From NCBI GenBank assembly GCA_035478775.1, contig DATIJG010000008.1:56354-120353 (forward strand): a stretch of DNA of 64,000 nt, given 5' to 3'. Every line of letters starts with the position of its first letter. Positions within the stretch are counted from its first letter, which is position 1. Under the pieces are notes generated by a model. The model had not been told where the DNA came from. It saw nothing but the letters and a program-made list of their open reading frames with translations, and ran no database searches. Shown in pieces: positions 791-28,511 of the stretch. Origin of the DNA: Candidatus Saccharimonadales bacterium (GTDB lineage Bacteria > Patescibacteriota > Saccharimonadia > Saccharimonadales > UBA4665). The position numbers were made by a program, and so were the translations under genes.

Positions 791-932
791 ATAGTAACAG
801 ATGATCAGTTCAAACGTCGTCACTCTGCCGGTAGGCAGGAATCGCGGCGAATACGCCTCGATTGTACGCTAGCTTTATATTTTTTTTGAAAGAAAGGTAT
901 AATAGTAAAAGTAATAAAACGTACAGGGGGGT

Positions 933-1802: not shown

Positions 1803-1818
1803 TACGGCAGGCGAAACG

Positions 1819-4107: not shown

Positions 4108-4141
4108 ATACTAGTTATAGTATAAGGTATGGAGGGATTCA

Positions 4142-4378: not shown

Positions 4379-4436
4379 GGGCGAAGCCGGAGTCATAGCA
4401 ACCTTTCTTGGCTGAACGATGGTATTTTTTGATAGT

Positions 4437-5711: not shown

Positions 5712-5784
5712 GCTATGTATCTTTCTGTGTGCTTAAGAATCTCTCGTTGCTACCCACAATGCCATCTTTTGGTATCTATAACCA

Positions 5785-5808
5785 TTTGATTATACAATAA
5801 TAATCAAA
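5785..5808 (-). promoter_or_regulatory. Extended -10 promoter (TGTATAAT) embedded in a 9-bp inverted repeat, upstream of the 424-aa gene
   Basis: Plus strand reads TTTGATTAT-acaata-ATAATCAAA (5785..5793 / 5800..5808). The reverse complement of 5789..5796 is TGTATAAT, about 75 nt upstream of the ATG at 5711. Confidence 0.4.
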
Positions 5809-6073
5809 CCTGCTGGCTATTTTTCATAGATTGCAGAGTTATGCCTGTCGTCGCTCTGCTCATAAACCAAAACGAAGAAGCAAAGATAATTACTTCTCTC
5901 AAAACAAAATTTCTGAAGAGAGGATAGCCGCACCAATAAAATAACGCTTAACTGTAGTATCCATTATCTCAATAATAACAAAATTAATAATTAATCCTCT
6001 TCAAAGAAATAGTATGGGCAAGATCACAGAAGAAAATAACCGAAATATAACTTTCAGCAATGGACTGAACTTC

Positions 6074-6117
6074 AGCTCGGATCTGAGGCGTGGCCTCTGT
6101 TATTCTGGCAGGGTAGG
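6074..6117 (-). repeat. tRNA-Trp 3'-end-like repeat, copy A1 (32-nt flank block + TGGCAGGGTAGG)
   Basis: 6074..6105 matches 28399..28430 at 28/32 nt. It is followed by TGGCAGGGTAGG (compare tRNA-Trp TGGCAGGGGAGA). Confidence 0.7.
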
Positions 6118-6221
6118 AGCGGTTTTGCTCGTCAATGACGCAGTGACGATTCCTTCGACACTGGCATGATAGAAGCATGGCACACTCATGGATCCATCAT
6201 AGCAGATCAGGTTGAAATCCT

Positions 6222-6254
6222 TGGCGCGCACAGGACTCGAACCAAACTTTAAGG
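6222..6254 (-). repeat. tRNA 3' remnant, copy A2 (CCA end, shortened acceptor, T-arm)
   Basis: TGGCGCGCACAGGACTCGAACCAAACTTTAAGG. The 20-nt ACAGGACTCGAACCAAACTT (6230..6249) is identical to 28344..28363. No 5' half, so no cloverleaf. Confidence 0.7.
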
Positions 6255-6255
6255 T

Positions 6256-6972
6256 TCAAACTTCAGGCTGAAACTTATTCCGACTCCAATGCCAAAGCAC
6301 AGGATGAACTTGCGACGGACTTATGCCGCTGCCTTTTAACAGCTCCTTCCAGGCGGCTTCGGCTTGCGGCGCAGTAGGCCCAGCCGGCGTTACTCCTAGG
6401 TGAACACTGCATTGTAAAACGTGCGTGTCGGGAATAATCGATATTTCCTGCGCATTCTTGAACTGGACATCTGTAAAGCGCGATAGAATAAACGGCCAAT
6501 AATTAGATAGCTTAGGGCCAGAAAGGTAGGGGAAGCGCTTTCGATGTGTTTTTTGCAAAAGTGTAATGAGTTGACCAGCATCATGGTTTGCTTCCTTAAG
6601 GATATTTCGAGGGTCATCTTTATAGTAGTTGTGCAGTGTTTGAGCTATTGTCGTCCAAATGAGCGTATGTTTGTTCGGCTGTAAGGCAAGTTTATGTTTT
6701 ACAAGATCGGCACGAATTTGTTCTATAGGTGTTTTCGCCAAACGTTCCGGAAAAAAGACATACCTGGTTGCTTCATCTTCCCAGGTGGCAAGCGCAGCAG
6801 CCCACATAGCTGGTGAACTACGCTGGAAGTTAATACAAACTGGCAGGGTGAAATAAAGGTAGTTTTCTCGACTATCGAGTGAAAGTTTAGGATTAACCTC
6901 GTGCTGTGCAAGCGTTGGGATAAGACCTTGCTCATATAGTGCAAGAAGATGTTTGACTTTCTCTAGTTGCAT
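6256..6972 (-). CDS. HhH-GPD superfamily (endonuclease III-like) DNA glycosylase-like protein
   Basis: I trimmed the start to MQLEKVKH (ATG 6972) because the track start overlaps the upstream gene. Motifs: LSGPKLSNYW (hairpin-helix region) and IIPDTHVLQCSVHLGV (compare VDTHVxRvxxRLG). Confidence 0.55.
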   Translation of the reverse strand: MQLEKVKHLLALYEQGLIPTLAQHEVNPKLSLDSRENYLYFTLPVCINFQRSSPAMWAAALATWEDEATRYVFFPERLAKTPIEQIRADLVKHKLALQPNKHTLIWTTIAQTLHNYYKDDPRNILKEANHDAGQLITLLQKTHRKRFPYLSGPKLSNYWPFILSRFTDVQFKNAQEISIIPDTHVLQCSVHLGVTPAGPTAPQAEAAWKELLKGSGISPSQVHPVLWHWSRNKFQPEV

Positions 6973-6979
6973 ATTCTTG

Positions 6980-7627
6980 CTATACCTTTCTGACTCGCGC
7001 GGGTTTATTGCTTTGCTCTTGATCAGGGTGTTTATGCTGTAAATATGCCTGATACTCGTGGTCGTGTTCAATGATGTTTTTAAGCGCTTCACGGATAACT
7101 TTAGTGCGGCTTTTATGCTTTACGAACTGTGCCCAGTCTAGATAGCGACGCTCTCGACCACTCAGCACCAAATGGAAACGATTCTTCTCAGCGCCATCAG
7201 CGTAGGTATTAATAAAAGTCTGTAAAACATCGACCAAAGTATCTGGTGTATATTCAGCCACCTGCAGCAAATCTGATTCGATGCCATGTATAAACATCTG
7301 GTTAAAGTGTTTATGTTTTTTGCGTTGCCAGAGAACGAGAGTGGGTTTACGTATTTGGAGCGCCAGAGTAATCTGATGGCCGGTGCTAAAGTTAGAAACC
7401 GTATCTTCGATAACCACGAGCTCAGCTTCGCGGATCGCTTCAACGCAGGCCTTATAAATATTCTTTATATTTGGCAGCTCAGTGTTGCCGGCCTGCATAT
7501 GCTTTTCAGTTTCTTCAAGCCAGTCACGCGTCAGAATATGTTCTTTTGCTAGGTAGTCGCGGATTGCATAGTAACTATCACGATACTCAGCGAGTTCAGC
7601 AGTCGAACAAGAGAAATAGATCTTCAT
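6980..7627 (-). CDS. Nucleoside 2-deoxyribosyltransferase/TIR-like flavodoxin-fold domain fused to a C-terminal ribbon-helix-helix-like segment
   Basis: 215 aa. MKIYFSCS... then EAELVVIEDTVSNFSTGHQITLALQIRKPTLVL, which fits the NDT/TIR-like pattern but lacks the catalytic Glu. The C-terminus NRFHLVLSGRERRYLDWAQFVKHKSRTKVIREAL resembles CopG/RHH. Confidence 0.4.
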   Translation of the reverse strand: MKIYFSCSTAELAEYRDSYYAIRDYLAKEHILTRDWLEETEKHMQAGNTELPNIKNIYKACVEAIREAELVVIEDTVSNFSTGHQITLALQIRKPTLVLWQRKKHKHFNQMFIHGIESDLLQVAEYTPDTLVDVLQTFINTYADGAEKNRFHLVLSGRERRYLDWAQFVKHKSRTKVIREALKNIIEHDHEYQAYLQHKHPDQEQSNKPARVRKV

Positions 7628-7843
7628 ACAATCGTAGCATACGCTATACGTCTTTTATGTGCAATATGTGCATATGGATATATAGACTTACTATTTCAAA
7701 GGAAAATCACAAAAGACGGCGGATATCGAACCACATTAGGATTAGCCTTTCATCGCATGCTGAAACGAGCAATATGATGAATTCTGGTTTGATTGGACCA
7801 GACGGCGAAATAGTAAACAAAATTGAACGCGAGGAAGGCAACT

Positions 7844-7900
7844 TGACAGTCCTAGCCGGACTTCTCTCGAACCGATAACAGGGATAGAATGAAGCCCAGG
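7844..7900 (-). repeat. tRNA-3'-end-like repeat, copy B
   Basis: TTGACAGTCCTAGCCGGACTTCTCTCGAACCGATAACAGGG...GAAGCCCAGG. Aligns with copies at 9206.. and 23110... Hairpin AGTCC-TAGCC-GGACT. Confidence 0.6.
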
Positions 7901-7973
7901 TTATTGACATTACGCTGCCACCTTGTTATTATCTTAGATATCAAGACGAAGAGAGTTCCGAACGGTTAGTTGC

Positions 7974-8501
7974 CTAAGGAGCTCTTTTCTTTTTGTCGTG
8001 ATGAGTGATCTTTTTCTTTACACCTGCGTCATCTAAATAAGCAAAATACGGTGCACCAATCTGCTTATAAAGAGATGAGCGAAACTTTTTATTTGGGAAA
8101 AGTATCTTTTCAAACCGGTCTTCTTCAATTAGATAATCAACAAGCATCTTATAATCACCATCCCCAGAAACAAGTACGACTTTATCAAAGTCCGGATCTT
8201 TTTGAAGCCGTTTCATTACAGAAAAGATAATGTCTGAATCAACATTGCCCTTCTTATTGCCAATCATAGCTGCATTATGCTGTCTGAAAACGAGAATAAA
8301 ACCGGCGTTCTGAATAGCTTCGTACAGGTGTTCAATCTCTGCACCTTCTTGTACATATCCTAAGTAGTAAAAAGCCTTTTCGACATGGTACTTCTCGCGT
8401 AAATAAACTCGAAACTTAGGCAGGTCGATTTTCCATGCTGGACCAGCGCTGGCCGTGCCGAGGTGGAGGTTCTGACCGTCAATATAACAGTAGTTCTTCA
8501 T
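7974..8501 (-). CDS. NYN (LabA-like) domain protein, predicted RNase
   Basis: 175 aa. N-terminal YIDGQNLHLG and VLVSGDGDYKMLVDYL motifs typical of NYN/LabA. Confidence 0.65.
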   Translation of the reverse strand: MKNYCYIDGQNLHLGTASAGPAWKIDLPKFRVYLREKYHVEKAFYYLGYVQEGAEIEHLYEAIQNAGFILVFRQHNAAMIGNKKGNVDSDIIFSVMKRLQKDPDFDKVVLVSGDGDYKMLVDYLIEEDRFEKILFPNKKFRSSLYKQIGAPYFAYLDDAGVKKKITHHDKKKRAP

Positions 8502-8516
8502 GGCATTATTATAACA

Positions 8517-9083
8517 TTAGTTGATTGGCAAATTTTCCGCGTAGGGTAAGCCGTGCATGTATCTAATATATGTATGAGCAGCTTTTAAAAATGTTAGATC
8601 GCGCTCATGGATAAACTTGCCACCATAGTCGTCAGGTGCATCTTGCTCAAGAAGGTTAATCGCATCGGCTGTATCTTTTGCCCAGACAAGGGCAACGCCT
8701 TCACTCAATTCTTTTCCGGTAAAATCAGGCCTATTCATCTCGCCGACTTGCTTAGCAAGATAACAATACGAGGTCTGCTTTTGGTTCCATTCATCACGGT
8801 ATTCGATTATTTCGCCAAGCTCATCCGTAATTTCTGCTCGGCAACCAATCTCTTCTAATAGCTCTCGCTCAAGCGCCTGCTTAATGTCTTCATTGTTCTC
8901 AACACCGCCGCCAGGCAATTTGTGATAGTTATATTTTCCTACGTGAAGCAGTGCAACTCTGCCATTCCCGCCAGTCACAATTGCTCTCGCCGCATGGCGC
9001 TCACCAAAGCCGGTAGAATCTTTATCTTTAGCATTAGGAACTATTTCAGAGTGGCGAATCTCACACAGTAATTTCATAGTCAC
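8517..9083 (-). CDS. NUDIX hydrolase
   Basis: 188 aa. Nudix box GGGVENNEDIKQALERELLEEIGC (GX5EX7REUXEEXGU). 15 nt upstream of the NYN gene on the same strand. Confidence 0.8.
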   Translation of the reverse strand: MTMKLLCEIRHSEIVPNAKDKDSTGFGERHAARAIVTGGNGRVALLHVGKYNYHKLPGGGVENNEDIKQALERELLEEIGCRAEITDELGEIIEYRDEWNQKQTSYCYLAKQVGEMNRPDFTGKELSEGVALVWAKDTADAINLLEQDAPDDYGGKFIHERDLTFLKAAHTYIRYMHGLPYAENLPIN

Positions 9084-9154
9084 AGTTTAGCAGAAGTTAG
9101 TTTGATCATCGACTTTCTACCGGAAAACGGGACTTTGGCTAAGACTACTAGAAG

Positions 9155-9262
9155 AATCCGAGTATTTTTCAACTCGGATTTGAGGCGTGACCTATGTTAT
9201 TCGTTTTGGCAGCCCTGGCTGGGCTTTTCTCGAACCGATAACGGCGGGAGAGTGAAGCCAGG
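9155..9262 (-). repeat. tRNA-Trp 3'-end-like repeat, copy C (hairpin + 32-nt flank block + TGGCAG + T-arm-like part)
   Basis: 9171..9202 matches 28399..28430 at 30/32 nt. It is followed by TGGCAGCCCTGGCTGGGCTTTTCTCGAACCGATAACGG. The stem AGCCC/GGGCT covaries with AGTCC/GGACT in other copies. Confidence 0.7.
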
Positions 9263-9294
9263 TTCATAGCTAGTATCAAAGCCGCTAGCCTTCC

Positions 9295-19279: not shown

Positions 19280-19319
19280 GAAATTCCTCCAGCTTTATTT
19301 TCATTACATAGCCTACCAT

Positions 19320-19355
19320 AAAGTACTATCATTTTGATAGTACTTTTATTATAAT
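19320..19355 (+). promoter_or_regulatory. 12-bp perfect inverted repeat (candidate HxlR operator) plus TATAAT -10 in the divergent MBL/HxlR intergenic region
   Basis: AAAGTACTATCA-ttt-TGATAGTACTTT (19320..19346), then TATAAT at 19350..19355, 13 nt before the ATG at 19369. Confidence 0.5.
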
Positions 19356-19368
19356 CTATAATGAATTT

Positions 19369-19821
19369 ATGAACTTACACGAATTACGATCTGATTGCCC
19401 AATAAATTATGTTACTGAGCTCCTTGGAGACAAGTGGAGCTTTCTTATTTTGCGTGACATTGTTTTTCAGCATAAGAGTTCCTATGGTGACTTTCTCGGC
19501 TCAAAAGAAAAGATCGCTCCTAGTATTTTGGCTCGCCGTCTTGCTTCGCTTCATGATAATGGCTTCTTAAGAAAGCAGCGAGATCCCGAGAATAAAGCAA
19601 AGTTCATTTATAGCCCGACAGATAAAACAATTGGCCTCATCCCTCTCTTGGTTGAGATGATGTTGTGGAGTGAGCAATACTCATCCTTGTTTATATCTAA
19701 GGAGCGTCAGGCAGACTTACGAAAGATTCATTCTAATAAAGAAGCCTTCGTCCAAGAAACGCGAGAACATATCCTAACTCAAGCATCAAAGTATAAAGAC
19801 AAAAAAGCCCATAGCCACTAA
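19369..19821 (+). CDS. HxlR-family transcriptional regulator
   Basis: 150 aa. CPINYVTELLGDKWSFLILRDI is typical of the HxlR winged helix. Confidence 0.8.
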   Translation: MNLHELRSDCPINYVTELLGDKWSFLILRDIVFQHKSSYGDFLGSKEKIAPSILARRLASLHDNGFLRKQRDPENKAKFIYSPTDKTIGLIPLLVEMMLWSEQYSSLFISKERQADLRKIHSNKEAFVQETREHILTQASKYKDKKAHSH

Positions 19822-19939
19822 CCCTTATTGTGGCATCGCATGATTATCGCCGACGGTATCGTGCGGTTAATAACACGGCATGTACCTGCTTATTGTAGAG
19901 CTAATTAGATAGAAATTCCGATATATGTGGTCATATTTT

Positions 19940-20536
19940 CTATGTGCCTTGTAGCCCCTGGATTTTAGTCTTCCTCGGTATCGTTACCAGCACTGCTATC
20001 GCTGTGTCAAATACAAATAAATAGAGTGGATACAATACAAGATAGGGCTCAAGCTTCGTCAGGGCGCACAAGCTAAATGCTGCCGCTACAGAATACATTA
20101 TCCATGCTGTTTTATTTTCCGTATAGGGTTCAAAGTAAACCTTCTTGAGTTTCGGTGCAAAGCCACAGGTGGAGGCAAGCATTGTGAGATATAGCGCAGT
20201 GTGCGGATTCCCGGTTGCTTTCCAGCCAACGATACCAACAACAGCTCCAAGTAGACAAAAGATATCCAACTTTGAAGTTCCACCGACACCATGTTTGAGA
20301 GCAAGTAAGAATACAGCGATCCCGCAAACAGCATTTACGCATGGCAATAGTGCTGTTGCCCGCGCTCCTGATGCAACATAACTAGTGGCTCCAACAATAC
20401 CGGTTAATGCCCAAATACCGACCGTTGCGCGATTGGGCTTAGTTTCACCTCTGAGAATACTTCTGAAGTACGGCCAGTAGGAAGCGAGGCCAATGATAGC
20501 AGCAAGAATACCGAAGATAGTGTGAAGCTTAGGCAT
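19940..20536 (-). CDS. Integral membrane protein (about 6 TMS), unknown function
   Basis: 198-aa hydrophobic ORF. Confidence 0.55.
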   Translation of the reverse strand: MPKLHTIFGILAAIIGLASYWPYFRSILRGETKPNRATVGIWALTGIVGATSYVASGARATALLPCVNAVCGIAVFLLALKHGVGGTSKLDIFCLLGAVVGIVGWKATGNPHTALYLTMLASTCGFAPKLKKVYFEPYTENKTAWIMYSVAAAFSLCALTKLEPYLVLYPLYLFVFDTAIAVLVTIPRKTKIQGLQGT

Positions 20537-20715
20537 TGGTTAGCTCTTTAGCCTTTTATATTCTTTTCTGGCTTCACCTTGCTTGCAAAGCCAGAAATTT
20601 TATCAGCTGGATATATCTTTTTATATTCATTAGTCTCAGTGTAGCATTTATTCTTTATGCGTGAAATTTTACCCAAACGAGCATGCGTAAGGCAAATACG
20701 ATGCAACAGAGGTAG

Positions 20716-20743
20716 ACAAAAAGAATGAGTCAAATACTCATTC
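20716..20743 (-). terminator. Intrinsic terminator-like hairpin (minus strand)
   Basis: Minus strand reads GAATGAGT-atttg-ACTCATTC followed by TTTTTG. Confidence 0.4.
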
Positions 20744-20932
20744 TGATATAACCTTTTGCAATCTGCTAGATCGCGAAATAATAACTTGGCAGGGGCTCGA
20801 GAATGGGAACATAACCTTTACGGATGAGTTAGATTTTGAGATTTCGGAGTTTGACTATACCTATGAAGACAACGCACTTTGACATAAGTAGCTGAAGAGA
20901 CTTTACAGCCTTATTTAATTTAAGGCCACAGC

Positions 20933-21793
20933 TTAAACATCTTCTACATAAAGTTCAGGGGCTAGCAGGTTAATATCGTCAATACTGTATGGCTCCTCCA
21001 TACCTGCAATGTGGGCCCCGACTTGCTGATGAGTAATAAGGTGAGCGGCAATTCGCAGCGGTGCGGTGAAGTTTACATTTAGCTGTTTGAAAGAGCTGAC
21101 ATCGTCTACATCTCCTGGTCCGACAAAGCGTGCTTTATAAGAGCCGCTTTTACTTCCCGGGATACGCAATGGTACTGCAATACCCTCGCGTTGAATCCAA
21201 TCTGTCATGGTCCTGTTTGCGAATGTCATACTAGCATCGACCAGTTGCCGGCAAAATCGTTGATTGAGCGGCGCTACTGGCTCAGTACGACCAAGCCAGC
21301 GTTGCGCAAAGTATCCCAAATCTTCAGGTAGTTGCTGGGATTGGTGGCTGATATGCAAGTTGACGGTACTTATCCAGGCTGGCATGATAGTTGGCTCTTC
21401 CACGGGCTTGACATCTGCATCAAATTGTTGAGTTAGTAACATGGCTCTGCACCTTTTTCCACGTAACTCCATGGCGCGTATAACGTATCCGGCGAGCATT
21501 AGATTGTCGACCTGGCGGTTATGGGAGTAGTAACTGTGGCGTTGCTCAATTGCCCGTTGTGTTTGCTCGTGATCGGGTGATAGCTGCGAGCCATCTACGA
21601 TCGCTACTTCGAGCTTAAAGGAGCTTTGGCTGTTTCTCGTAACTCGCATGGCGTCATCAATTTCCCGCGGGCCTAAGCCGTCAATAGAGAAAAAGGGCTG
21701 GCCCGTACAGTCTACTCGTATATTGTCGTTGAGACCAGTTACTTGCAAATAATTTTTCGACTTTGTTTTTCTTGGTGAAGGTCTTCGAGGCAT
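20933..21793 (-). CDS. Stand-alone RNB (RNase II/R catalytic) domain protein
   Basis: Start trimmed to MPRRPSPRK (ATG 21793). Motif I IDGLGPREIDDA, VAIVDGS (compare HIADVS), motif IV FTAPLRIAAHLITHQQV (compare TSPIRRYxDLxxHR). No CSD or S1 domains. Confidence 0.6.
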   Translation of the reverse strand: MPRRPSPRKTKSKNYLQVTGLNDNIRVDCTGQPFFSIDGLGPREIDDAMRVTRNSQSSFKLEVAIVDGSQLSPDHEQTQRAIEQRHSYYSHNRQVDNLMLAGYVIRAMELRGKRCRAMLLTQQFDADVKPVEEPTIMPAWISTVNLHISHQSQQLPEDLGYFAQRWLGRTEPVAPLNQRFCRQLVDASMTFANRTMTDWIQREGIAVPLRIPGSKSGSYKARFVGPGDVDDVSSFKQLNVNFTAPLRIAAHLITHQQVGAHIAGMEEPYSIDDINLLAPELYVEDV

Positions 21794-22063
21794 AACTAAA
21801 AAATTATATAATAACACGTAGACTAGGGCAAATATAGTGGAGTAATAGTCACGGTATTGTAGTATAAGATACGTCAATATAATTACGCTTATGCTCTCTA
21901 ATTAAATTAATCAATGGAAGCGTAGACTTGACTAATATATTGCATTATATTTGCTACTATATAGGTGTCGCATGCCGAGCTGTATGATGACCTCTTGATG
22001 CGCCCCTAGGGACGCTGATTGTTTTTATAGGATGTGCTGTCAGACCAGCTACGCGCTCTTCGG

Positions 22064-22329
22064 CTAGACGGTCATTACTACAAGTGTTTCATCAATATCA
22101 CAGGCCAGCACCAAGTCTTGTTCCGGGCTTATTCGTCTCATCCCAATACCTCTCGTGCAGCGATTAGGCCATGCTCAATAATTACTAGCTCGTCAGGCTG
22201 CATAGTGCCAGCTTCCACAAAGCCACGCACCGCTTCTATGGGAAATGTCCGTTCGGCTGGCTGATCGGGGTCGGTAGGCACCTGCAGCCCATGTTCTGTG
22301 GTTGCCCAAAGATTTCGACAACCAAGCTT
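22064..22329 (-). pseudogene. Decayed gene remnants (unknown C-terminal fragment plus 25-codon HAD-like N-terminus)
   Basis: Start-less frame 22329..22138 (...NLWATTEHGLQVPTDPDQPAERTFPIEAVRGFVEAGTMQPDELVIIEHGLIAAREVLG-stop). It overlaps by ATGA a 25-aa ORF, MRRISPEQDLVLACDIDETLVVMTV-stop, which carries the DxDxT motif. Confidence 0.35.
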
Positions 22330-22398
22330 TTATAAAAATCCTGAAAGTTTATTACTAGCCACAGGCCGCCTAAGCATCGTGAGGCGTAGCACCGGATC

Positions 22399-22968
22399 CT
22401 AGACAGTAGCAGCACTATCGCAAGCAGAAAATAAAAACTCTACATTAGCAGGGGCAATAGTGTTGGTTGCTCCGCTTATATTGTTTGAATCCTCTTGGAA
22501 GGTGAAACCCTTTTCATTACTCATCAAACCACCTAGCACATCTGTTTCAAGCAGACCTGCTGCTTGACTAGCTTGCTCTTGAGTAAACTTACCTCCAGCC
22601 TGAGTGGAGTCATAGCCAACCAGCGTGTGCATTAAAAAGGTAACCGATTTAGGAACTCGCAGCCTTGCCGTTGCTCCTATAACACTGCCTGCTATAGTCC
22701 GCTCAGCCGTCGCCTGAAGGCTGGGTCTATCTGTATTCAGAAGGTCGCCCAAGCCAATATTATCGGTTCTCACATTAAAGTCGTACTGAGCTACATGATT
22801 ACACGCTTGAGCCAAGCTAGAAGGGCCCGGACTAGGTGCTATGCCGTCGCCCGAGCCTTTGCTGGCACACGCCGAAATAGCAAAGCCTACAACAGCACCA
22901 AAAGCAACTGCTTTAGTAGCTCTTGATACTTCTCCACCATTGCCTTCAGCGCTTTTCCTACTTTTCAT
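22399..22968 (-). CDS. Putative lipoprotein, unknown function
   Basis: 189 aa. Signal peptide with lipobox AISAC. Confidence 0.55.
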   Translation of the reverse strand: MKSRKSAEGNGGEVSRATKAVAFGAVVGFAISACASKGSGDGIAPSPGPSSLAQACNHVAQYDFNVRTDNIGLGDLLNTDRPSLQATAERTIAGSVIGATARLRVPKSVTFLMHTLVGYDSTQAGGKFTQEQASQAAGLLETDVLGGLMSNEKGFTFQEDSNNISGATNTIAPANVEFLFSACDSAATV

Positions 22969-23089
22969 ATAGATAGTTTAAACAAAAAATCAGAGATATG
23001 AAACTATATTTGGGTGTTCCTAACACGCTTACGCTAAACCCGCTAAATGGGTACGCTTAACACTTTACACAAAAGAACCTGTTGAGGCA

Positions 23090-23151
23090 TTTTCGTATCT
23101 GTTACTAAACTTGGCAGTCCTAGCAGGACTTCTCTCGAACCTTTAACAAAG
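23090..23151 (-). repeat. tRNA-3'-end-like repeat, copy E
   Basis: TTTCGTATCTGTTACTAAACTTGGCAGTCCTAGCAGGACTTCTCTCGAACCTTTAACAAAG. Hairpin AGTCC-TAGCA-GGACT. Confidence 0.6.
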
Positions 23152-23160
23152 TAAAATTAT

Positions 23161-24342
23161 TTAAATAGATGCAGGTTCGTCGAGCGGAACATCTTTGTGA
23201 ATACGGACACGATAATGCGTGTATAGCAGGTATGCCACTGCTGGCAGTTTGGCAAGAGCAAGGATAATAAGAGCTAATTGGATCGATCTTGTTGCCACGG
23301 CACCCGCAGCCCACACAAGTCCACCTCCTAGAATATTACGCGTACTGCTCGCCAGAGAAAGCATCGCGGCGCGTTGGCCGGTAATGATGCGGTTCAGGAT
23401 TGTAGACATGTACACCCGAAAGTAGTTCTCGGTGGCCAGAAAAATTGTCAGTGCGACAATACTGACTACCTTTTGGTCGAGGCCGAAAGAAACGAGCGTT
23501 ATGAGCATCACCGGAAAAGCGACAAGCAGATCTCTGAGACCAAAGTCTTTATGTCGGGCGAGTATAGACCCTACAATCGCGGCACCTTTATAGAGTGCAA
23601 ACACCAAGCCGAAACTTGCTACACTAAGCCCGATGTTTTCCATATGCGGCTGCCAGAGTATACGCCCGCTCTCATAAATAAGTGCCAGCGCGATCAATAG
23701 CGGCAAAAGTGGAACTGTCTGATGCAGCGCCTTTCGGACGGAGTGCCATGTCATATGTATCGGCTCGGCGTTCATGACACCGCGACGCGAGTGCGGCAAA
23801 CCGAACTGTACATAACATGCGTGTACGGCAAGCAATGCTGCCGCTACGACGAGCGGCCAGCGAAGATCATCGACAACAAAAAGCAAAAGACTAGAAAAAG
23901 CCATACCAATAACTGTTGCTGCCTCATCGACAATAGTTATATTGGCGAATGTCCTTTGGTATTGCCGTTTGTCTTTCAGAAGGTCGTCATGCACATATGC
24001 CTCGTCTGCTCCCGTGCTGAACGCCCATCCAGTACCACTCAAAACAGCGGCAATCACAAACATGGTGAGCGAGTTGCCAACCGCTAAGAAAATAGTTGCT
24101 GCAGCCTGGAACATCGCTCCGATTAACAATGATCTTTTATTGCTAATCTTGTCGGCGATAAAGCCCGCCGGGACTTCAAACAGTGCAGTCGTGAGGAGAA
24201 TAAGCGACTCTGTAAATGCAGCTTGGCCTACGCTAAGACCGCTCTGCAATTTCCAAGCGATAGAAATCGGTATCATTAAACCAAACCCGAAGTGTTCGAT
24301 AGCTACTTTTATGTAGTATTTCATAGCTCTAGTATACGGCAT
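23161..24342 (-). CDS. MFS transporter
   Basis: Polytopic ORF. Start is uncertain (ATG 24342 or 24324; the track start 24471 adds a non-hydrophobic, Tyr-rich extension). Confidence 0.65.
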   Translation of the reverse strand: MPYTRAMKYYIKVAIEHFGFGLMIPISIAWKLQSGLSVGQAAFTESLILLTTALFEVPAGFIADKISNKRSLLIGAMFQAAATIFLAVGNSLTMFVIAAVLSGTGWAFSTGADEAYVHDDLLKDKRQYQRTFANITIVDEAATVIGMAFSSLLLFVVDDLRWPLVVAAALLAVHACYVQFGLPHSRRGVMNAEPIHMTWHSVRKALHQTVPLLPLLIALALIYESGRILWQPHMENIGLSVASFGLVFALYKGAAIVGSILARHKDFGLRDLLVAFPVMLITLVSFGLDQKVVSIVALTIFLATENYFRVYMSTILNRIITGQRAAMLSLASSTRNILGGGLVWAAGAVATRSIQLALIILALAKLPAVAYLLYTHYRVRIHKDVPLDEPASI

Positions 24343-24599
24343 GGTCTGAAGATATTGGGCATGTTGAATTATACGCCGAATGTATGTATTATCAACATAT
24401 TGCTTGTGCTTATAGTAGTAAGAGCGGAGTTGGAATGCATACTTTACATTTAGAACATAAGGACATAGCAAGGCTTAAAACTGCATTGAGTGACGAGCTT
24501 GAAGTAGAACCTAAGGCGAACGAAGTTTTTAGACGCCTCGGTCAACAAGGTCTTACAAAAATACTTACGGAGTAAGCTTCGAACGTCGCATCTCAACTT

Positions 24600-25325
24600 G
24601 TGCAGTCAAAGAATAGGTTAACTCAAGGCGCTGGCGCTGTTGTTTTAAGAGGACTGGCGATAAGTAGCGAGTCGCCAGAGCTTGCACAACTAGCCTCAAT
24701 TACCATTGGCAGTGCTTACGGAAGACCTACAAAAACTGATAAACAGTTATCTCAGATAGCGTGGCCGGTAAGATTCGATCCGGATGCGCCCATACGCTCC
24801 ACCTTTTCACAAACTAAGGGCGAGGCACAGCTCCATACTGATTCCCAATATTTTGAACATCCAGAGAAGTTTTTCGGATTATTCTGTATCGTAGCAGATG
24901 AGCAGGGAAAAGGCACAAACACTCTCGTCTATGCAAAAGATGTGGTGCATGCAGTAGCCAAAGAAAGTCCAGAGTCTCTTGAAGTGCTTTCTAAGAAGTA
25001 TCCATTCCGCGTCCCAACCGCGTTCACTGAAATGGCGACAGATTCAGCAGTAGAAATAACATGGGCGCCAATTATTACAATGGGCACAGTGCGGTATCGT
25101 TACGACACTCTGTGTGACGGAATTGCCGCAGTAGGAGGTATTGATGAGGCTCAGCTTACGGCATTAGCCCTATTTGAGCAAAAATTAGCAGAAGCGCCGT
25201 CACAAGCCTACCATCTCTCTCCCGACGAAGCGCTGCTAGTTAATAATCATACTATGCTGCATGCTCGTACGCCCTTTGATAACCCTGAGCGTCTATTGTA
25301 TCGAGTAAGGATGGAGGAGCCATGA
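24600..25325 (+). CDS. TauD/TfdA (clavaminate-synthase-like) Fe(II)/2-oxoglutarate dioxygenase; N-terminal part may be cut off by an in-frame TAA
   Basis: HxD facial-triad motif LHTDSQY, distal NNHTMLHARTPF, GAVVLRGL strand. ORF 24384..24575 is in the same frame, separated only by TAA at 24573..24575. Confidence 0.65.
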   Translation: MQSKNRLTQGAGAVVLRGLAISSESPELAQLASITIGSAYGRPTKTDKQLSQIAWPVRFDPDAPIRSTFSQTKGEAQLHTDSQYFEHPEKFFGLFCIVADEQGKGTNTLVYAKDVVHAVAKESPESLEVLSKKYPFRVPTAFTEMATDSAVEITWAPIITMGTVRYRYDTLCDGIAAVGGIDEAQLTALALFEQKLAEAPSQAYHLSPDEALLVNNHTMLHARTPFDNPERLLYRVRMEEP

Positions 25326-26113
25326 TTTCGAAACTGCCATATAAACGTGCAATTATAACAGGAGCCAGTTCTGGCATCGGCGCAGAGATAGCCCTCCAAT
25401 TATGTCAAGCCGGAGTTATAGTTTATGCTGTAGCACGTACTAAATCCAAACTACAAGAAGTACAAAAGCAGCTCAGCAAGACGCAGCAGAAACGCTTTAT
25501 AGTTCTGGCAAAAGATTTGCAATCAGCTACTGATATTGAAGAGATATTACATGAGACAACCTCGAACGGCCCCATTGACCTGCTGGTAAATAATGCAGGA
25601 GTTGGTTTTAGTAAACGATTCGAGGAACTCTCACCTCATGAGATTGAAACAATGATTGCAACCAATCTCATAGGTCCAGTGCGTCTAACCCACGGCATAC
25701 TCAAAAAACACGATCAGGCACAGCCTCTGCAGATCGTATTTGTGACCTCATTAGCTGGTAAAGTCGGGTTTGGTGAGCTATCTGTTTACTCTGCAACTAA
25801 GTTCGCACTTGAGGGTATAGGCGAGGCATTACGCATGGAATATACTAACACGCCAATTTCTATAACCGTTCTTCGGCCAGGTATTACAGATACTGCATTT
25901 TTCCACAAAGCAGGCATGAGTGATTTCAAGAGGTCGGTAGAAGGTACTAAGTCTTTTTATTCTGCCCAACAAGTTGCAACTGAGTTCCTGGGCAAAATTA
26001 CTGCCTGTCCCCCTGCGATCGTAGTGGGCAACGATAAATATTTTTTAAAGCTTTTACCGTTTATCCCGTTCAGACACAGGTTTAAAATTCTTAACATTGT
26101 TAATAAGATTTAG
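25322..26113 (+). CDS. Short-chain dehydrogenase/reductase (SDR)
   Basis: TGxxxGxG ITGASSGIGAEIA and catalytic YSATKFALEG. Overlaps the previous gene by 4 nt (ATGA). Confidence 0.85.
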   Translation: MISKLPYKRAIITGASSGIGAEIALQLCQAGVIVYAVARTKSKLQEVQKQLSKTQQKRFIVLAKDLQSATDIEEILHETTSNGPIDLLVNNAGVGFSKRFEELSPHEIETMIATNLIGPVRLTHGILKKHDQAQPLQIVFVTSLAGKVGFGELSVYSATKFALEGIGEALRMEYTNTPISITVLRPGITDTAFFHKAGMSDFKRSVEGTKSFYSAQQVATEFLGKITACPPAIVVGNDKYFLKLLPFIPFRHRFKILNIVNKI

Positions 26114-26123
26114 GAGATTCTAT

Positions 26124-27095
26124 ATGAATAACGGTATCATTGACCCAGTCAACCACAAGTTAACGCAAAATGACCTCGAAGCAGACAACTATAAAAGTTT
26201 CCTGGACGAGCTAACCGACGTGCCATCCTCTGTGCCGCTCAAGTCATTTTCCATCAACAAAGCAGGTATTAGCGGACAAATGGCTTACATAAAAGTACGC
26301 TCACTGTTTAGTGACCAATATGTACCCGTACTGTGCCAAATCAAGATGCAAGTCACGCTTGAAGGCCACCGCGGCATCCACATGTCGCGTTGCGAGGAAG
26401 CACTCTTTGCGCTCATGCAGGAAGAACACGATTCGCTAGATGAACTTGCGAGTCGACTTGCCATGAAGCTACGTAATCTCCAATCCGCTGATGCCGCATT
26501 CGTAGAAATCGAGGGCACATATATAGCTGAGCGTAAGACTATTAAGACAAGGCGTACATCACATGACCGCATGACCTTATTTGCAAACGCCCAGGCCACC
26601 GCTACAGGCATAGAGCGCCAGATTGGTATCGCAGCTTTTAATATGACAGGCTGCCCTTGTACCGAGACATTTACAAAATTCTCCGTAGCGCCTAAGCTAC
26701 TCGAAACAGGTCTAACGCTCGATCAAGTTAACGAGATACTTTCTATAACCAACTCAGGAACGCATACGCAACGCGGACAAGCAAAGATAATGCTCGACAA
26801 GCCCCGTGACGGAGTTACTTACAAGATGCTCTACGATATTCTAGACGAGAGCTGCCACTTAGTGTTCGAGCTGCTGAAGCGTGCCGACGAGCATGAACTC
26901 GTTGTTCGAGTGCTCCGTAAACCGCAGTTTACCGAAGATGTTGTTCGCGACATTATTGACGTCTGTATACGCAAAGCCGGGCGGTACCTCGAAAAGGAAT
27001 CTCGTATTTTTGCATCTTCGGTACTTTTCGACAGCATTCACATTCATGATGTATGTACGGAAATAGAAAGATCCTACGGTGAACTCACTGCCTAG
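26124..27095 (+). CDS. folE2: GTP cyclohydrolase FolE2/MptA-family (COG1469) protein, divergent
   Basis: ATG at 26124 after AGGAG. Family motifs appear in order: GIHMSRC, MTGCPCTE, GTHTQRG, LLKRADEHELVVRVLRKPQFTEDVVRDI, DSIHIHD. Confidence 0.65.
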   Translation: MNNGIIDPVNHKLTQNDLEADNYKSFLDELTDVPSSVPLKSFSINKAGISGQMAYIKVRSLFSDQYVPVLCQIKMQVTLEGHRGIHMSRCEEALFALMQEEHDSLDELASRLAMKLRNLQSADAAFVEIEGTYIAERKTIKTRRTSHDRMTLFANAQATATGIERQIGIAAFNMTGCPCTETFTKFSVAPKLLETGLTLDQVNEILSITNSGTHTQRGQAKIMLDKPRDGVTYKMLYDILDESCHLVFELLKRADEHELVVRVLRKPQFTEDVVRDIIDVCIRKAGRYLEKESRIFASSVLFDSIHIHDVCTEIERSYGELTA

Positions 27096-28287
27096 CGAGA
27101 GACCGGTGCCTGCTGACACATATAGGCATAATGAGCTAGCAAGTAGTATCGGTCGCTTCAGCGTCACAGAAATTGACATTGAAACAATGCGACAAGCAAC
27201 TGAGATTTTTGACATAACAGTAGACATGTTGGCTACAAGTGAAGCACCACCTGTTCCCCATACTGACCCGGAACTGCTGCGGCAAGCAGCCGCTTTTGAC
27301 GATAAGCTCATACATCAATTGCATGAAGGGCCCGCCTCTATACATCTAGCAACAAGCAAAGTTAGTCGCGCAACTGGCTTGCTAGCCGCACATAAAACGT
27401 TTTGTCTCGACACCTTACGATCTAAGCAACCATCTGAATTATATGTTGAGCCGCAGTCCATCGCAGATGCGTATGGGTTGCCGGAGCTCTGGCAAGGTGC
27501 CAAGAATGTTTTAAAGGAAGAGGTAACGCGTTATAAAGTCGAAACACAGCATCCTGATATCCCCGAGCCACTACAACAACCAGTTAGCCTGGCCGAAACT
27601 AAGAGTTTGCTACGGTTTATGTGGGATCGGGTAGTACAGCCACGCGAAACACCTAGCGTTAATGTATACATGACCGACCAACCTCAAAACTATCACGTTT
27701 TCTGGGCACCCACTGCCAGTAACCTAGACTACGCGACACCTACAGCATATAGCCGCGCCACGCAACTTTCGTTTGATTTACCTCACAATGCAACACATCT
27801 TGCACATCTTGACGTATTACAAAAGGCTGATGGTGTGCATCGCTACAAAGATTCTATGCCTCAACGCGCGTTCTTTGAAGCGGCTACAGTCCTGTCTGAG
27901 TATATAACTATGGAGACGGCTGCTCATGGCGCCGAATTCGGTGAAGAGCTTTTGCGCGTGATGAATCTTGAGGGTTCTATGACGGCAGACGAACTATCAA
28001 AGTGGGTTGTAGCTGATCGAATGTACGAGTTCAAACTTCGTGCCGTACGGCTTTATGCTGACGTCTTAATGCTAGAAGGACGGCCGTTTGAAGATACGGT
28101 GCAACATATTAGTGAAGAGTTCGGCATACCGCACGAGCAAACAGCCGCAGAAACCGCCAAATACCTACCATGGACTGGCTTGGGAGGTGTGTATACATAC
28201 GGTTATCGTAAACTACTCGCAGAGCAAAAATATACGCTCGATGAAGTGTTCTATGATACGAAAGGCCAACCTAGAGAAAATTGGTAA
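27079..28287 (+). CDS. Hypothetical protein (402 aa)
   Basis: Long ORF overlapping the FolE2-like gene by 17 nt (GTG start; alternative ATG at 27187). HNATH motif noted, but I cannot make a family call. Confidence 0.5.
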   Translation: MNSLPSERPVPADTYRHNELASSIGRFSVTEIDIETMRQATEIFDITVDMLATSEAPPVPHTDPELLRQAAAFDDKLIHQLHEGPASIHLATSKVSRATGLLAAHKTFCLDTLRSKQPSELYVEPQSIADAYGLPELWQGAKNVLKEEVTRYKVETQHPDIPEPLQQPVSLAETKSLLRFMWDRVVQPRETPSVNVYMTDQPQNYHVFWAPTASNLDYATPTAYSRATQLSFDLPHNATHLAHLDVLQKADGVHRYKDSMPQRAFFEAATVLSEYITMETAAHGAEFGEELLRVMNLEGSMTADELSKWVVADRMYEFKLRAVRLYADVLMLEGRPFEDTVQHISEEFGIPHEQTAAETAKYLPWTGLGGVYTYGYRKLLAEQKYTLDEVFYDTKGQPRENW

Positions 28288-28343
28288 AACCTCAGAGTCA
28301 CCGAAGGCGCAGTTTACCCGAGGTTTGAACTTTCTGCTAAGAT

Positions 28344-28371
28344 ACAGGACTCGAACCAAACTTAACAGAGG
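28344..28371 (-). repeat. tRNA T-arm-like repeat, copy F1
   Basis: ACAGGACTCGAACCAAACTTAACAGAGG. The first 20 nt are identical to 6230..6249. Confidence 0.7.
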
Positions 28372-28372
28372 C

Positions 28373-28409
28373 AGGAATAAAAAATCCAAGCTTTTAATAA
28401 CTCGGATTT
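28373..28409 (-). terminator. Intrinsic terminator downstream of tRNA-Trp
   Basis: Minus strand: AAAUCCGAG-uuauuaaaag-CUUGGAUUU (9 bp including one G-U) followed by UUUAUU. Confidence 0.7.
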
Positions 28410-28435
28410 GAGACGTGACCTCTGTTATTCTGACC
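28399..28435 (-). repeat. Reference copy of the 32-nt flank block directly 3' of tRNA-Trp
   Basis: AACTCGGATTTGAGACGTGACCTCTGTTATTC recurs at 9171..9202 (30/32) and 6074..6105 (28/32). Each copy is followed by TGGCAG. Confidence 0.75.
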
Positions 28436-28511
28436 TGGCAGGGGAGACAGGACTTGAACCTGCGACACCCGGTTTTGGAGACCGGTGCTCTACCAACTGA
28501 GCTACTCCCCT
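28436..28511 (-). tRNA. trnW: tRNA-Trp (anticodon CCA), CCA-3' encoded
   Basis: The reverse complement AGGGGAGTAGCTCAGTTGGTAGAGCACCGGTCTCCAAAACCGGGTGTCGCAGGTTCAAGTCCTGTCTCCCCTGCCA folds as a 76-nt cloverleaf: 7-bp acceptor, D arm GCTC/GAGC, anticodon stem CCGGT/ACCGG with loop CTCCAAA, and a T arm. Confidence 0.95.

What the first reader, a model, noticed from the sequence alone, without database searches (positions are those of the whole stretch)
6074..28511. About 22 kb of cassettes bounded by same-orientation degenerate copies of a tRNA 3' end, anchored at tRNA-Trp
tRNA-Trp (28436..28511, minus strand) is followed on its 3' side by a 32-nt block. That block recurs with TGGCAG at 9171..9207 (30/32) and 6074..6111 (28/32).

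Further degenerate copies of the pattern TCTGT..-TGGCAG-(acceptor-like)-AGGACT..TCGAACC-..TAACAG.GG occur at 7844..7900, 16205..16266 and 23090..23151, with a weak one at 20785..20816. All are in the same orientation, and each sits directly downstream of a minus-strand gene block.

They partition the region into six cassettes:
- Fxs/SGNH
- glycosylase + NDT-RHH
- NYN + Nudix
- PadR-ABC + AsnB locus
- efflux/regulator/RNB set
- dioxygenase-SDR-FolE2 cluster

The hairpin within the repeat covaries (AGTCC/GGACT versus AGCCC/GGGCT). Gene remnants (NmrA and HAD fragments) lie inside the region.

By eye the DNA left of the tRNA looks AT-richer than the DNA to its right; I did not compute this.

The pattern resembles serial island accretion at a tRNA att site. 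However, no integrase is present in the window, and the conserved flank block is not what simple att duplication predicts. A structured 3'-UTR or processing element family is the alternative.
Basis: seen in the sequence. Interest (0 to 1): 0.62.

Follow-up and report, generated by a model that had tools for sequence, protein, structure and literature searches.

The report
Gene-cassette array behind tRNA-Trp
Behind the tryptophan tRNA gene of this tiny-genome Saccharimonadales bacterium lies a stack of about ten imported gene units, each bounded by a copy or imitation of the tRNA's last 45 bases; close relatives carry different units at the same joints, so this looks like a gene-collecting site built by repeated insertion at the very tip of the tRNA gene, with no recombination enzyme in sight.

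Summary
On the minus strand, tRNA-Trp (28436-28511) is followed by co-oriented sites at 28335, ~24352, 23112, 20787, ~16790, 16226, 9207, 7844, 6222, 6106 and ~865. Each site has a ~45-nt left arm that imitates the tRNA from the variable loop to CTGCCA. There are three arm types: true tRNA-end copies (T), A and A16. A trailer with a terminator hairpin follows each arm.

None of these arms occurs in the other 42 kb of the window. A scan of one genome per species in the GTDB collection and of JGI metagenomes with the A-type pattern gave six loci. Every one with enough context has the arm downstream of a tRNA-Trp in the same orientation.

A relative with 90-96% identical flank proteins has 5.85 kb inserted exactly between the tRNA's GCCA and the window's trailer. 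It lacks two window units (4.0 and 6.4 kb) and has two units in a different order.

Left arms and trailers are re-assorted exactly at GCCA across genomes. This indicates serial site-specific integration at the CCA end.

About 100 kb of such arrays in five lineages contain no recombinase, so the enzyme acts in trans or has been lost. Its class is unresolved; a large serine recombinase is slightly favoured. There is no support for a shared RNA structure.

The parts
28436..28511 (-). tRNA-Trp(CCA), the anchor of the array. Its last bases, CTGCCA, are the shared core of all sites.
   Evidence: ARAGORN and Rfam at 71 bits. Homology to relative L006 stops exactly at 28436.
28380..28435 (-). Trailer B: GGTCAGAATAACAGAGGTCACGTCTCAAATCCGAG plus a terminator hairpin and T-run. 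This is the native right half of the target site.
   Evidence: The same trailer follows A or A16 arms in the window at 9207 and in L001, L005 and L006.
28335..28371 (-). T-type arm: CCTCTGTTAAGTTTGGTTCGAGTCCTGTATCTTAGCA.
   Evidence: nhmmer E 7e-3. Orthologous to L006 10615-10652.
24352..28334 (+). Unit with the 402-aa orphan, FolE2-like, SDR and TauD-like genes. It is absent from relatives L006/L012/L017.
   Evidence: blastn: L006 10547-10662 = window 28439-28325 and L006 10663-11909 = window 24351-23110. Degenerate direct repeats TCTTAGCAGAAAGTTCAAAC / ATTCGGCGTATAATTCAACA lie at its ends. Pfam.
23161..24351 (-). MFS transporter unit, shared with L006/L012 (92-93% aa).
23112..23151 (-). A-type arm: TTTGTTAAAGGTTCGAGAGAAGTCCTGCTAGGACTGCCA.
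   Evidence: (E 2e-11).
20804..23111 (-). Unit with trailer B3, a 189-aa orphan and a stand-alone RNB domain gene. It is part of the 6.4 kb that relative L006 lacks.
20787..20803 (-). Decayed T-type arm: TTCTCGAGCCCCTGCCA.
   Evidence: Its trailer is homologous to that of the L018 site at 11484. A terminator-like hairpin lies at 20744-20722.
16830..20786 (-). Unit with a 198-aa orphan, HxlR regulator, metallo-beta-lactamase-fold gene and MFS490. Absent from L006.
16749..16829 (-). Putative decayed T-like arm (GAATTCAAGCGTATCTAATAGG). It marks where homology to L006 resumes at 16748. Uncertain.
   Evidence: Read by eye only.
16276..16683 (-). Nudix135 single-gene unit, shared with L006/L012 (88% aa).
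16226..16267 (-). A16-type arm: CCCCTGTTAAAAGTTTGAACTCAGTGCGCTTAGGGCTGCCA.
   Evidence: E 6e-9. Counterparts in L001, L006 and L014/L018.
9247..16225 (.). Unit of 7 kb: AsnB-like locus (+), NmrA fragment, PadR-ABC-FtsX operon (-).
9207..9246 (-). A-type arm: CCGTTATCGGTTCGAGAAAAGCCCAGCCAGGGCTGCCA.
9152..9206 (-). Trailer B copy with terminator hairpin.
7974..9083 (-). Nudix188 + NYN unit. Homologues of both genes (76% and 90% aa) lie 8.4 kb apart in the tRNA-Trp array of L018.
7844..7886 (-). A-type arm, ending GTCA.
   Evidence: (E 4e-11).
6256..7627 (-). Unit with two orphans (215 and 278 aa).
6222..6249 (-). T-type arm: AAGTTTGGTTCGAGTCCTGTGCGCGCCA.
   Evidence: (D15).
6055..6119 (-). tRNA acceptor-end copy CTCCTACCCTGCCA (6119-6106) followed by trailer B. 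A 116-nt gene-less unit lies between it and the T arm at 6222.
876..6054 (.). Unit with a 424-aa orphan, the FxsA/FxsB radical-SAM locus and a GDSL lipase. In relative L017 this block lies on the other side of the APH gene.
   Evidence: blastn: L017 13390-16931 = window 4387-876.
829..875 (-). Decayed T-like arm (TTCCTGCC..GGCA) plus a GACGACGTTTGAAC..TCTGTTAC trailer or promoter, upstream of the APH-family gene.
1..790 (-). APH-family kinase gene (cut by the window edge). In L007/L012/L017 it follows a truncated A-type arm.

Best explanation
The region from tRNA-Trp to at least position ~865 is an additive array of about ten small integrative units (0.1-7 kb).

Each unit entered by site-specific recombination within the last six bases (CTGCCA) of the tRNA-Trp gene, or of an earlier copy of that site.

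An incoming circular unit carries one composite site. Its left arm of ~45 bp imitates the tRNA from the variable loop to CTGCCA (types A, A16 or T). Its right arm is a trailer with an intrinsic terminator.

After insertion the tRNA keeps its full sequence and receives the unit's terminator. The unit's tRNA-like arm becomes joined to the previous trailer and is pushed outward together with all older units.

Loss, replacement and re-ordering of units at the same joints generate strain-to-strain differences. Homologous recombination after DNA uptake may spread variants.

Shown here:
- the sites and their orientation;
- their restriction to the DNA downstream of tRNA-Trp;
- break points at GCCA;
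- re-assortment of left and right halves.

Inferred:
- the circular intermediate;
- a recombinase supplied in trans, or lost.

I favour a large serine recombinase of the tRNA-tip-targeting kind at roughly 45%, against 30% for a tyrosine integrase.
For: 1. Sites are non-random and local. There are three exact A-pattern hits and two trailer hits in the window with zero expected. Profile hits occur only between 6.2 and 28.4 kb, all on the minus strand.

2. Sites are linked to tRNA-Trp across genomes. The A pattern hit one genome among the GTDB representatives and five metagenome loci. In L001, L004 and L006 it lies 0.7-7 kb downstream of tRNA-Trp in the same orientation. L014/L018, found independently through a flank gene, has T and A16 arms behind its tRNA-Trp. 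Relatives without tRNA-Trp at the locus (L015, L019, L020) have no arms.

3. Break points are exact. L006 2-4692 matches window 33146-28436, ending at the tRNA's final A. Then come 5.85 kb unique to L006, ending ...TTAGGACCGCCA. After that, trailer B and the T arm match window 28439-28325.

4. The window has 4.0 kb and 6.4 kb that L006 lacks, both beginning at sites. The order of the APH and Fxs blocks is swapped in L017.

5. Halves re-assort at GCCA:
- trailer B follows tRNA (window), A (window 9207, L005) and A16 (L001, L006);
- B2 follows tRNA (L006) and A (L001);
- B4 follows tRNA (L004) and A (L003);
- B' follows tRNA (L014), an exact 21-nt tRNA-end copy (L001 3027-3047) and A (L004).

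6. Every trailer examined carries a hairpin, most with a T-run.

7. The array is compositionally distinct from the flank and contains a gene fragment.

8. LSR hint: the GGTTCGAG box lies at -30..-23 from the end of GCCA in A and A16 arms but at -25..-18 in tRNA and T arms. This is the 5-bp inward shift of the zinc-ribbon-domain motif in attB relative to attP described for serine integrases (PMC3783163).

9. Published precedents exist: tandem ssrA islands of Dehalococcoides, some without an integration module (PMC3146451), and tRNA-seeded islands of Prochlorococcus with scattered partial tRNAs.
Against: No recombinase domain was found in the window's main ORFs or its orphans (PHROGs). None was found in roughly 100 kb of related arrays.

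I therefore cannot show that any candidate enzyme exists in this organism, nor that the arms are absent elsewhere in its genome.

Only assembled contigs were available. They show no circular or empty-site junctions.

Junctions that pair an A or A16 arm with a non-native trailer (window 23112 and 16226, L001 6405, L003) imply insertion into an attL-like site. Canonical serine integrases avoid this.

The same NYN gene is followed by an A arm in the window and by an A16-like arm in L018. Arm and cargo are therefore not strictly linked.

Several proposed sites (~24352, ~16790, ~865) are read by eye.
Confidence: 0.7

Rival explanations
1. This is a classical tandem accretion of tRNA-integrating islands by a tyrosine integrase that crosses over in the T-loop. 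Integrase genes were later deleted and the displaced tRNA 3' ends decayed into the A and A16 forms.
For: T-type arms are what a T-loop crossover leaves: foreign sequence up to GG, then TTCGAGTCCTGTCTCCCC. In L001 an exact 21-nt copy starts inside the T-loop. Tyrosine integrases readily insert into attL or attR, which explains stacked units and the P|P'-type junctions. The 6-bp shared core CTGCCA is the size of a tyrosine-recombinase overlap region.
Against: The cleanest event (L006 against the window) leaves ...ACTTAGTACGCTTAGGACCGCCA next to trailer B, not the displaced tRNA end. The exchange was therefore at GCCA, not in the T-loop.

A and A16 arms are 85-95% conserved across lineages whose surrounding DNA is unrelated. 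That is not how neutral scars behave.

No integrase or integrase fragment was found in ~100 kb of arrays.
Confidence: 0.12
2. No dedicated recombinase is involved. The arms and trailers are ordinary 3'-end and terminator modules. Units are swapped by natural transformation and RecA recombination between these short shared sequences and conserved flanks.
For: Saccharibacteria are naturally transformable (my own knowledge, not checked here). Flanks (tRNA, AAA33, trailer B, MFS436) offer homology for replacing whole segments. There is no recombinase nearby.
Against: Homologous exchange does not explain how a tRNA-like arm plus a new trailer came to lie exactly at the tRNA's final base. It also does not explain why left and right halves re-assort at one fixed point while sharing only 4-6 identical bases there.

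The arms are not generic. None occurs in the 42 kb of the window outside the array, and the whole genome of the L001 organism has only one exact A-pattern hit.
Confidence: 0.08
3. The repeats are a family of structured RNA elements (tRNA-like 3' UTRs or processing signals) that stabilise or process cassette mRNAs. Their link to tRNA-Trp is incidental.
For: Each arm lies just after a co-oriented gene and before a terminator. The A-type arm has a 5-6-bp hairpin with one compensated change (window 9207).
Against: The consensus fold of 16 arms is -2.1 kcal/mol with no pair kept through a double change. A16 arms have no hairpin, and L005 breaks it.

Single-sequence folds are not better than shuffles, except where the terminator is included.

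There is no Rfam match.

An RNA role does not explain break points at GCCA or the tRNA-Trp linkage in five lineages.
Confidence: 0.04
4. This is a chromosomal integron or a cluster of attC sites lacking an integrase (CALIN).
For: It is a co-oriented site after each unit. In relatives there are single-gene units of 0.65-1.3 kb (L006/L007). Cargo is rich in Nudix, kinases, hydrolases and transporters.
Against: There is no IntI. The boxes occur as GTTA...TAAC, the reverse of the attC order RYYYAAC...GTTRRRY. Break points are at GCCA, not at G|TT. The sites are tRNA imitations, not folded hairpins. Many units are multi-gene, on either strand, with their own regulators.
Confidence: 0.01

Closest known systems
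ssrA-specific genomic islands of Dehalococcoides (DsiB large serine recombinase; PMC3146451)
   Same: Several tandem islands lie downstream of a single-copy tRNA-like gene, each bounded by a co-oriented copy of its 3' end. Some islands lack the integration module and are regarded as cis-mobilisable. Content differs strain to strain.
   Different: In Dehalococcoides, 16 islands carry dsiB next to attL, and the repeat is a 20-bp exact copy. Here no recombinase is seen in five arrays. Units are much smaller (0.1-7 kb). Most arms are conserved imitations (A, A16) rather than copies of the tRNA end.
tRNA-seeded genomic islands and tycheposons of Prochlorococcus (bioRxiv 10.1101/2020.12.28.424599)
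   Same: Streamlined genomes have flexible islands next to tRNA genes. Successive integrations push older elements inward. Partial tRNAs are scattered through the island. Most island DNA lacks an integrase.
   Different: Tycheposons carry their own tyrosine or serine recombinase and replication genes, and their att sites are about 40-nt partial tRNAs. Here the joint lies at the extreme CCA end, and the trailer is part of the re-assorting site.
Integron cassette arrays and CALINs
   Same: Functionally similar: a fixed entry point collects small, mostly accessory gene units, each with one co-oriented site. Units differ and are re-ordered between strains.
   Different: There is no IntI, no attC architecture and no folded single-strand site. 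Units often carry their own promoters and regulators, and may lie on either strand.
Large serine integrase attP/attB logic (A118/LI integrase; PMC3783163) and SCC elements at rlmH
   Same: Little identity is needed beyond a short core. A conserved 8-9-bp box lies 5 bp closer to the core in the host-type arm than in the element-type arm. Insertion is at the 3' tip of an essential single-copy gene.
   Different: No serine recombinase was identified here. Stacking by insertion into attL-like sites is not canonical for these enzymes.

Membership tests
tRNA-anchored additive genomic island (serial site-specific integration) | Intact tRNA gene at one boundary | tested here: met
   tRNA-Trp at 28436-28511, 71 bits. 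It is identical to the tRNA in L006.
tRNA-anchored additive genomic island (serial site-specific integration) | Co-oriented copies of the tRNA 3' part at internal and distal unit boundaries | tested here: met
   T, A and A16 arms are all on the tRNA strand. L001 has an exact 21-nt copy.
tRNA-anchored additive genomic island (serial site-specific integration) | Presence/absence of units between close relatives with break points at the repeats | tested here: met
   Window against L006/L012/L017.
tRNA-anchored additive genomic island (serial site-specific integration) | Integrase gene in or beside the element | tested here: not met
   There are no Pfam or PHROG recombinase hits in the window or in L001, L004, L006-L009, L012, L014, L017, L018 or L021.
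tRNA-anchored additive genomic island (serial site-specific integration) | Excised circular form or empty site in the population | tested here: inconclusive
   Only Logan contigs were available, with no informative joints. The window itself represents the empty state for the L006 5.85-kb unit.
Integron / CALIN | IntI tyrosine recombinase next to attI | tested here: not met
   The genes beside tRNA-Trp are an AAA_33 kinase, YgjP-like protein and a histidine kinase.
Integron / CALIN | attC sites: R''(RYYYAAC)-L''..L'-R'(GTTRRRY), a folded bottom strand, crossover at G|TT | tested here: not met
   Box order is reversed, break points are at GCCA, and there is no conserved fold. The attC covariance model itself was not available.
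Large-serine-recombinase integrative element | Gene with resolvase, recombinase and zinc-ribbon domains | tested here: not met
   None in any locus examined. The rest of the genome could not be searched.
Large-serine-recombinase integrative element | attP and attB half-sites share a distal motif shifted by 5 bp; identity is limited to a short core | tested here: inconclusive
   The GGTTCGAG box lies at -30..-23 in A/A16 arms and at -25..-18 in tRNA/T arms, and the shared core is CTGCCA. No matching shift could be shown for the right halves.
Dispersed REP/MITE/terminator repeat | Copies spread through the genome regardless of context | tested here: not met
   Within what could be searched: none in 42 kb of the window outside the array, one exact A-pattern hit in the whole genome of the L001 organism, and none in L015, L019 or L020. 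The window's own genome could not be searched.
Structured RNA family | Conserved secondary structure with covariation | tested here: not met
   RNAalifold gives -2.1 kcal/mol with 0 compensatory pairs. Rfam gives no match.

The most novel reading that the evidence does not exclude
Soil Saccharimonadales possess a gene-capture platform analogous to the integron but mechanistically unrelated to it. Small integrase-less cassettes each carry a ~45-bp imitation of the tRNA-Trp 3' half plus a terminator-bearing trailer. A trans-encoded large serine recombinase inserts, excises and re-orders them at the CTGCCA tip of the single tRNA-Trp gene. The A and A16 arms may be relics of that enzyme's own C-terminal coding sequence, which spans attP. 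Earlier unchecked notes of this scan report similar arrays at other tRNAs, so this would be a general route of gene flux in these reduced genomes.
Probability: 0.3. Interest if true: 0.8.

Novelty: new variant of a known kind. Interest (0 to 1): 0.62.

Why it matters
Patescibacteria have very small genomes and few recognisable mobile elements, yet a survey reports that up to 13% of genome length comes from horizontal transfer. That survey does not mention tRNA, integrase or recombinase (PMC12455944).

A defined, sequence-marked entry point that stacks and shuffles small accessory units would give that gene flux a concrete mechanism. The units here include nucleotide-salvage and Nudix enzymes, kinases, transporters and a peptide-modification locus.

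The array also offers short sites (tRNA tip plus trailer; A or A16 arm plus trailer) that could be tested directly with candidate recombinases. These sites could be useful for genetic work on these hard-to-manipulate bacteria.

Tried and rejected
No genome-wide count of the arms and no search for a recombinase in this genome were possible.

**Ruled out**
- Integron attC reading: rejected on box order and break points.
- dif/Xer-type 11-6-11 site: none seen by eye. The A-type palindrome is 6-1-6.
- Rfam at gathering and permissive thresholds gave only the tRNA.

**Led nowhere**
- Viral contig scans for A and A16 patterns gave nothing.
- A T-type pattern gave one AT-rich contig (L011) with Gabija-like genes and no integrase. 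I judged it unrelated.
- The tRNA-Trp 3' 25-mer hit 16 viral contigs of mixed taxa. None has a long antisense ORF running into the tRNA.
- Public runs hold only Logan contigs of the same strain. The 'joints' seen are repeat artefacts.
- Walking along contigs of four relatives found no recombinase.
- Literature searches found no description of tRNA-anchored cassette arrays in Saccharibacteria or Patescibacteria.

**Undecided**
- I tested whether the arms are coding remnants. The antisense frame LGSPxRT..* is open, with a stop 13-17 codons past the core. The sense frame that shares its third positions is open too, and variable columns do not concentrate at antisense third positions.

Full report
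**What is there**

ARAGORN and Rfam find one tRNA in the window, tRNA-Trp(CCA) at 28436-28511 on the minus strand. In what follows I read the minus strand, which is the tRNA's direction.

The tRNA is followed by a 56-nt trailer, here called B: GGTCAGAATAACAGAGGTCACGTCTCAAATCCGAG, then a hairpin and a T-run.

- The 32-nt core of B recurs at 9171-9202 with 2 mismatches. Zero matches are expected in 100 shuffles.
- It recurs at 6074-6105 with 4 mismatches.

A second module lies directly upstream of such trailers. It is a ~45-nt 'left arm' that imitates the tRNA from its variable loop to its last base. I distinguish three arm types.

- **T-type.** True copies of the tRNA end after a foreign CCTCTGT(T)AAA box. 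In the window these are at 28335-28371 and 6222-6249, which share an exact 20-mer. Decayed copies lie at 20787-20803, 6106-6119 and about 865.
- **A-type.** CTGTTAnnGGTTCGAGAGAAGTCCnnnnAGGACTGCCA, at 23112, 9207 and 7844. Zero hits are expected by chance.
- **A16-type.** CTGTTAAAAGTTTGAACTyAGTrCGCTTAGGrCTGCCA, at 16226.

An nhmmer profile of these arms finds significant copies only between 6.2 and 28.4 kb, all on the minus strand. It finds none in the remaining 42 kb. Each strong arm begins 10-90 nt after the stop codon of a co-oriented gene.

The array is 47.0% GC against 49.2% to its right. It is also more heterogeneous and more distant in tetranucleotide usage than any 5-kb chunk of the flank.

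**Organism and relatives**

Earlier notes on this window call the genome Saccharimonadales. My own hits agree. The only match to the A-type pattern among one genome per GTDB species is a Saccharimonadales MAG, L001. Homologues of the flank kinase are annotated as Saccharimonadales or Saccharibacteria.

The same pattern gave five metagenome loci. Wherever there is context (L001, L004, L006), the arm lies 0.7-7 kb downstream of a tRNA-Trp in the same orientation, together with further T, A and A16 arms and B-like trailers.

A relative found independently through the flank gene (L014/L018) also has a T arm and four A16-like arms behind its tRNA-Trp. Three relatives in which tRNA-Trp is not at this locus (L015, L019, L020) have no arms.

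The arms therefore go with tRNA-Trp. They are not linked to the chromosomal neighbourhood or to genes in general.

**Break points**

L006/L012/L017 is a close relative; its flank proteins are 90-96% identical.

- Its DNA matches the window from 33146 to 28436 and stops exactly at the tRNA's last base.
- Next come 5.85 kb found only in the relative: NT5C, glycosyltransferase, dNK-like, pyruvyl-transferase, HAD and two orphans, with no recombinase. This stretch ends in an A16 arm, ...TTAGGACCGCCA.
- After that, trailer B and the T arm match window 28439-28325.

So the window shows the empty state of that insertion. The exchange took place within the shared (C)TGCCA and not in the T-loop, because the displaced arm is not the tRNA's own end.

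Conversely, the window has two stretches that the relative lacks.

- 4.0 kb (28334-24352: orphan, FolE2-like, SDR, TauD-like), flanked by degenerate direct repeats.
- 6.4 kb (23111-16749), starting at the A arm at 23112.

At the far end, the relative has APH, then an orphan, then the Fxs/GDSL block. The window has an orphan, then the Fxs/GDSL block (4387-876), then APH (828-1). The order of whole units differs.

Homologues of the window's adjacent Nudix188 and NYN genes lie 8.4 kb apart in the L018 array, each next to arms.

**Re-assortment**

Tabulating 'left arm | trailer' for all sites shows that a few trailer families combine freely with the left types.

| Trailer | Follows tRNA in | Follows other arms in |
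|---|---|---|
| B | window | A (window 9207, L005); A16 (L001, L006) |
| B2 | L006 | A (L001) |
| B4 | L004 | A (L003) |
| B' | L014 | exact tRNA-end copy (L001); A (L004) |

In addition, the trailer of the window's weak site at 20787 matches that of an A16 site in L018.

The joint is always immediately after GCCA, or after a one-base variant of it. This is the signature expected if an incoming site (arm + trailer) recombines with the resident site (tRNA + trailer) at a fixed point.

Every trailer examined contains a hairpin, usually with a T-run. Each insertion therefore gives the tRNA gene a new terminator.

**Which enzyme?**

No recombinase domain is present in the window. None is present in about 100 kb of arrays from five lineages.

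Two observations lean towards a large serine recombinase.

- Identity between partners is limited to about 6 bp.
- The conserved GGTTCGAG box lies exactly 5 bp further from the core in A and A16 arms (-30..-23) than in tRNA and T arms (-25..-18). Serine integrases show this same relation between attP and attB half-sites (PMC3783163).

The Dehalococcoides ssrA islands offer a published precedent. They are tandem, co-oriented and served by a serine recombinase whose gene overlaps the target's 3' end, and some islands lack the integration module (PMC3146451).

Unchecked earlier notes of this scan report similar arrays at other tRNAs of Saccharimonadales, and serine recombinases split by their own attP. 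I treated these as leads.

I tested one prediction from them. The arms are open in the antisense frame (LGSP-x-RT-...), with a stop 13-17 codons past the core. The evidence is ambiguous, however, because the sense frame that shares its third positions is open too.

Against a canonical serine integrase, several junctions pair an element-type arm with a non-native trailer. This implies insertion into an attL-like site, which tyrosine integrases tolerate but serine integrases normally do not. I leave the class open: about 45% serine, 30% tyrosine, the rest other or lost.

**Alternatives**

- A shared RNA structure is not supported. The consensus fold of 16 arms is -2.1 kcal/mol with no compensatory pair. 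Only the A subtype has a hairpin, with one compensated and one uncompensated change. Rfam finds nothing.
- An integron is excluded by the lack of IntI, the reversed box order and the GCCA break points.
- Purely homologous exchange can spread variants. It cannot create arm-plus-trailer insertions at the tRNA's last base.

**Novelty**

tRNA-seeded additive islands are known, for example tycheposon islands and the Dehalococcoides ssrA islands.

The new features here are:
- the host group;
- the small, integrase-less units;
- the conserved imitation arms;
- the joint at the extreme CCA end, with trailers as part of the re-assorting site.

My literature searches found no description of this in Saccharibacteria or Patescibacteria. 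I rate it a new variant of a known kind.

Noticed in passing
window 1-5711 versus L017 11182-16931: The order of whole units is permuted between the window (orphan424 / Fxs-GDSL block / APH) and its close relative (APH / orphan321 / Fxs-GDSL block).
   Followed up: partly
window ~790-860 and ~9083-9115; L018 ~9960-10000; L001 ~3195-3235: Upstream of several cassette genes lies GATGTTCGAAC-N5-8-TCTGTTAnnAT, followed 5-7 nt later by ATG. It looks like an extended -10 promoter with a leaderless or near-leaderless start, and it may be part of the trailer family that follows T-type arms.
   Followed up: no
L020 + L021 (contig ERZ27257626:k141_2685634): In this relative the tRNA-Trp array lies between tRNA-Trp and the AAA33-YgjP-histidine kinase genes. 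This is inverted relative to the window, which suggests inversion of the whole array.
   Followed up: no
L008 11038-11042 versus L009 4733-10260: Two 98-99.8% identical strains differ by a 5.5-kb insert (amidotransferase, AMP-binding, aminotransferase, cytidylyltransferase) next to TyrRS. No tRNA-like arm lies at either end. A second replacement follows further on.
   Followed up: partly
window 33.4-37.2 kb and the matching parts of L012, L014, L015, L019, L020: Small ORFs of variable presence are intercalated between the conserved secE, nusG, rplK and rplA genes in different relatives.
   Followed up: no
window 12951-13214 (+): A start-less 88-codon frame matches the C-terminal part of NmrA (Pfam E 8.8e-7). 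It is a gene fragment inside the 7-kb unit. The proposed HAD fragment at 22.1-22.3 kb gave no Pfam match.
   Followed up: yes
L001 2875-3047; window 6106-6221 and 28336-28435; L006 11908-12025: 'Empty' units of 100-170 nt contain only a trailer or terminator between two sites. They are either minimal elements or what remains after cargo loss.
   Followed up: no
L011 2560-2860 (IMG/VR contig): Two inverted tRNA-3'-end-like sequences and an AACAGAGG box lie next to Gabija-like OLD and UvrD genes in an AT-rich viral contig. It is probably unrelated.
   Followed up: partly
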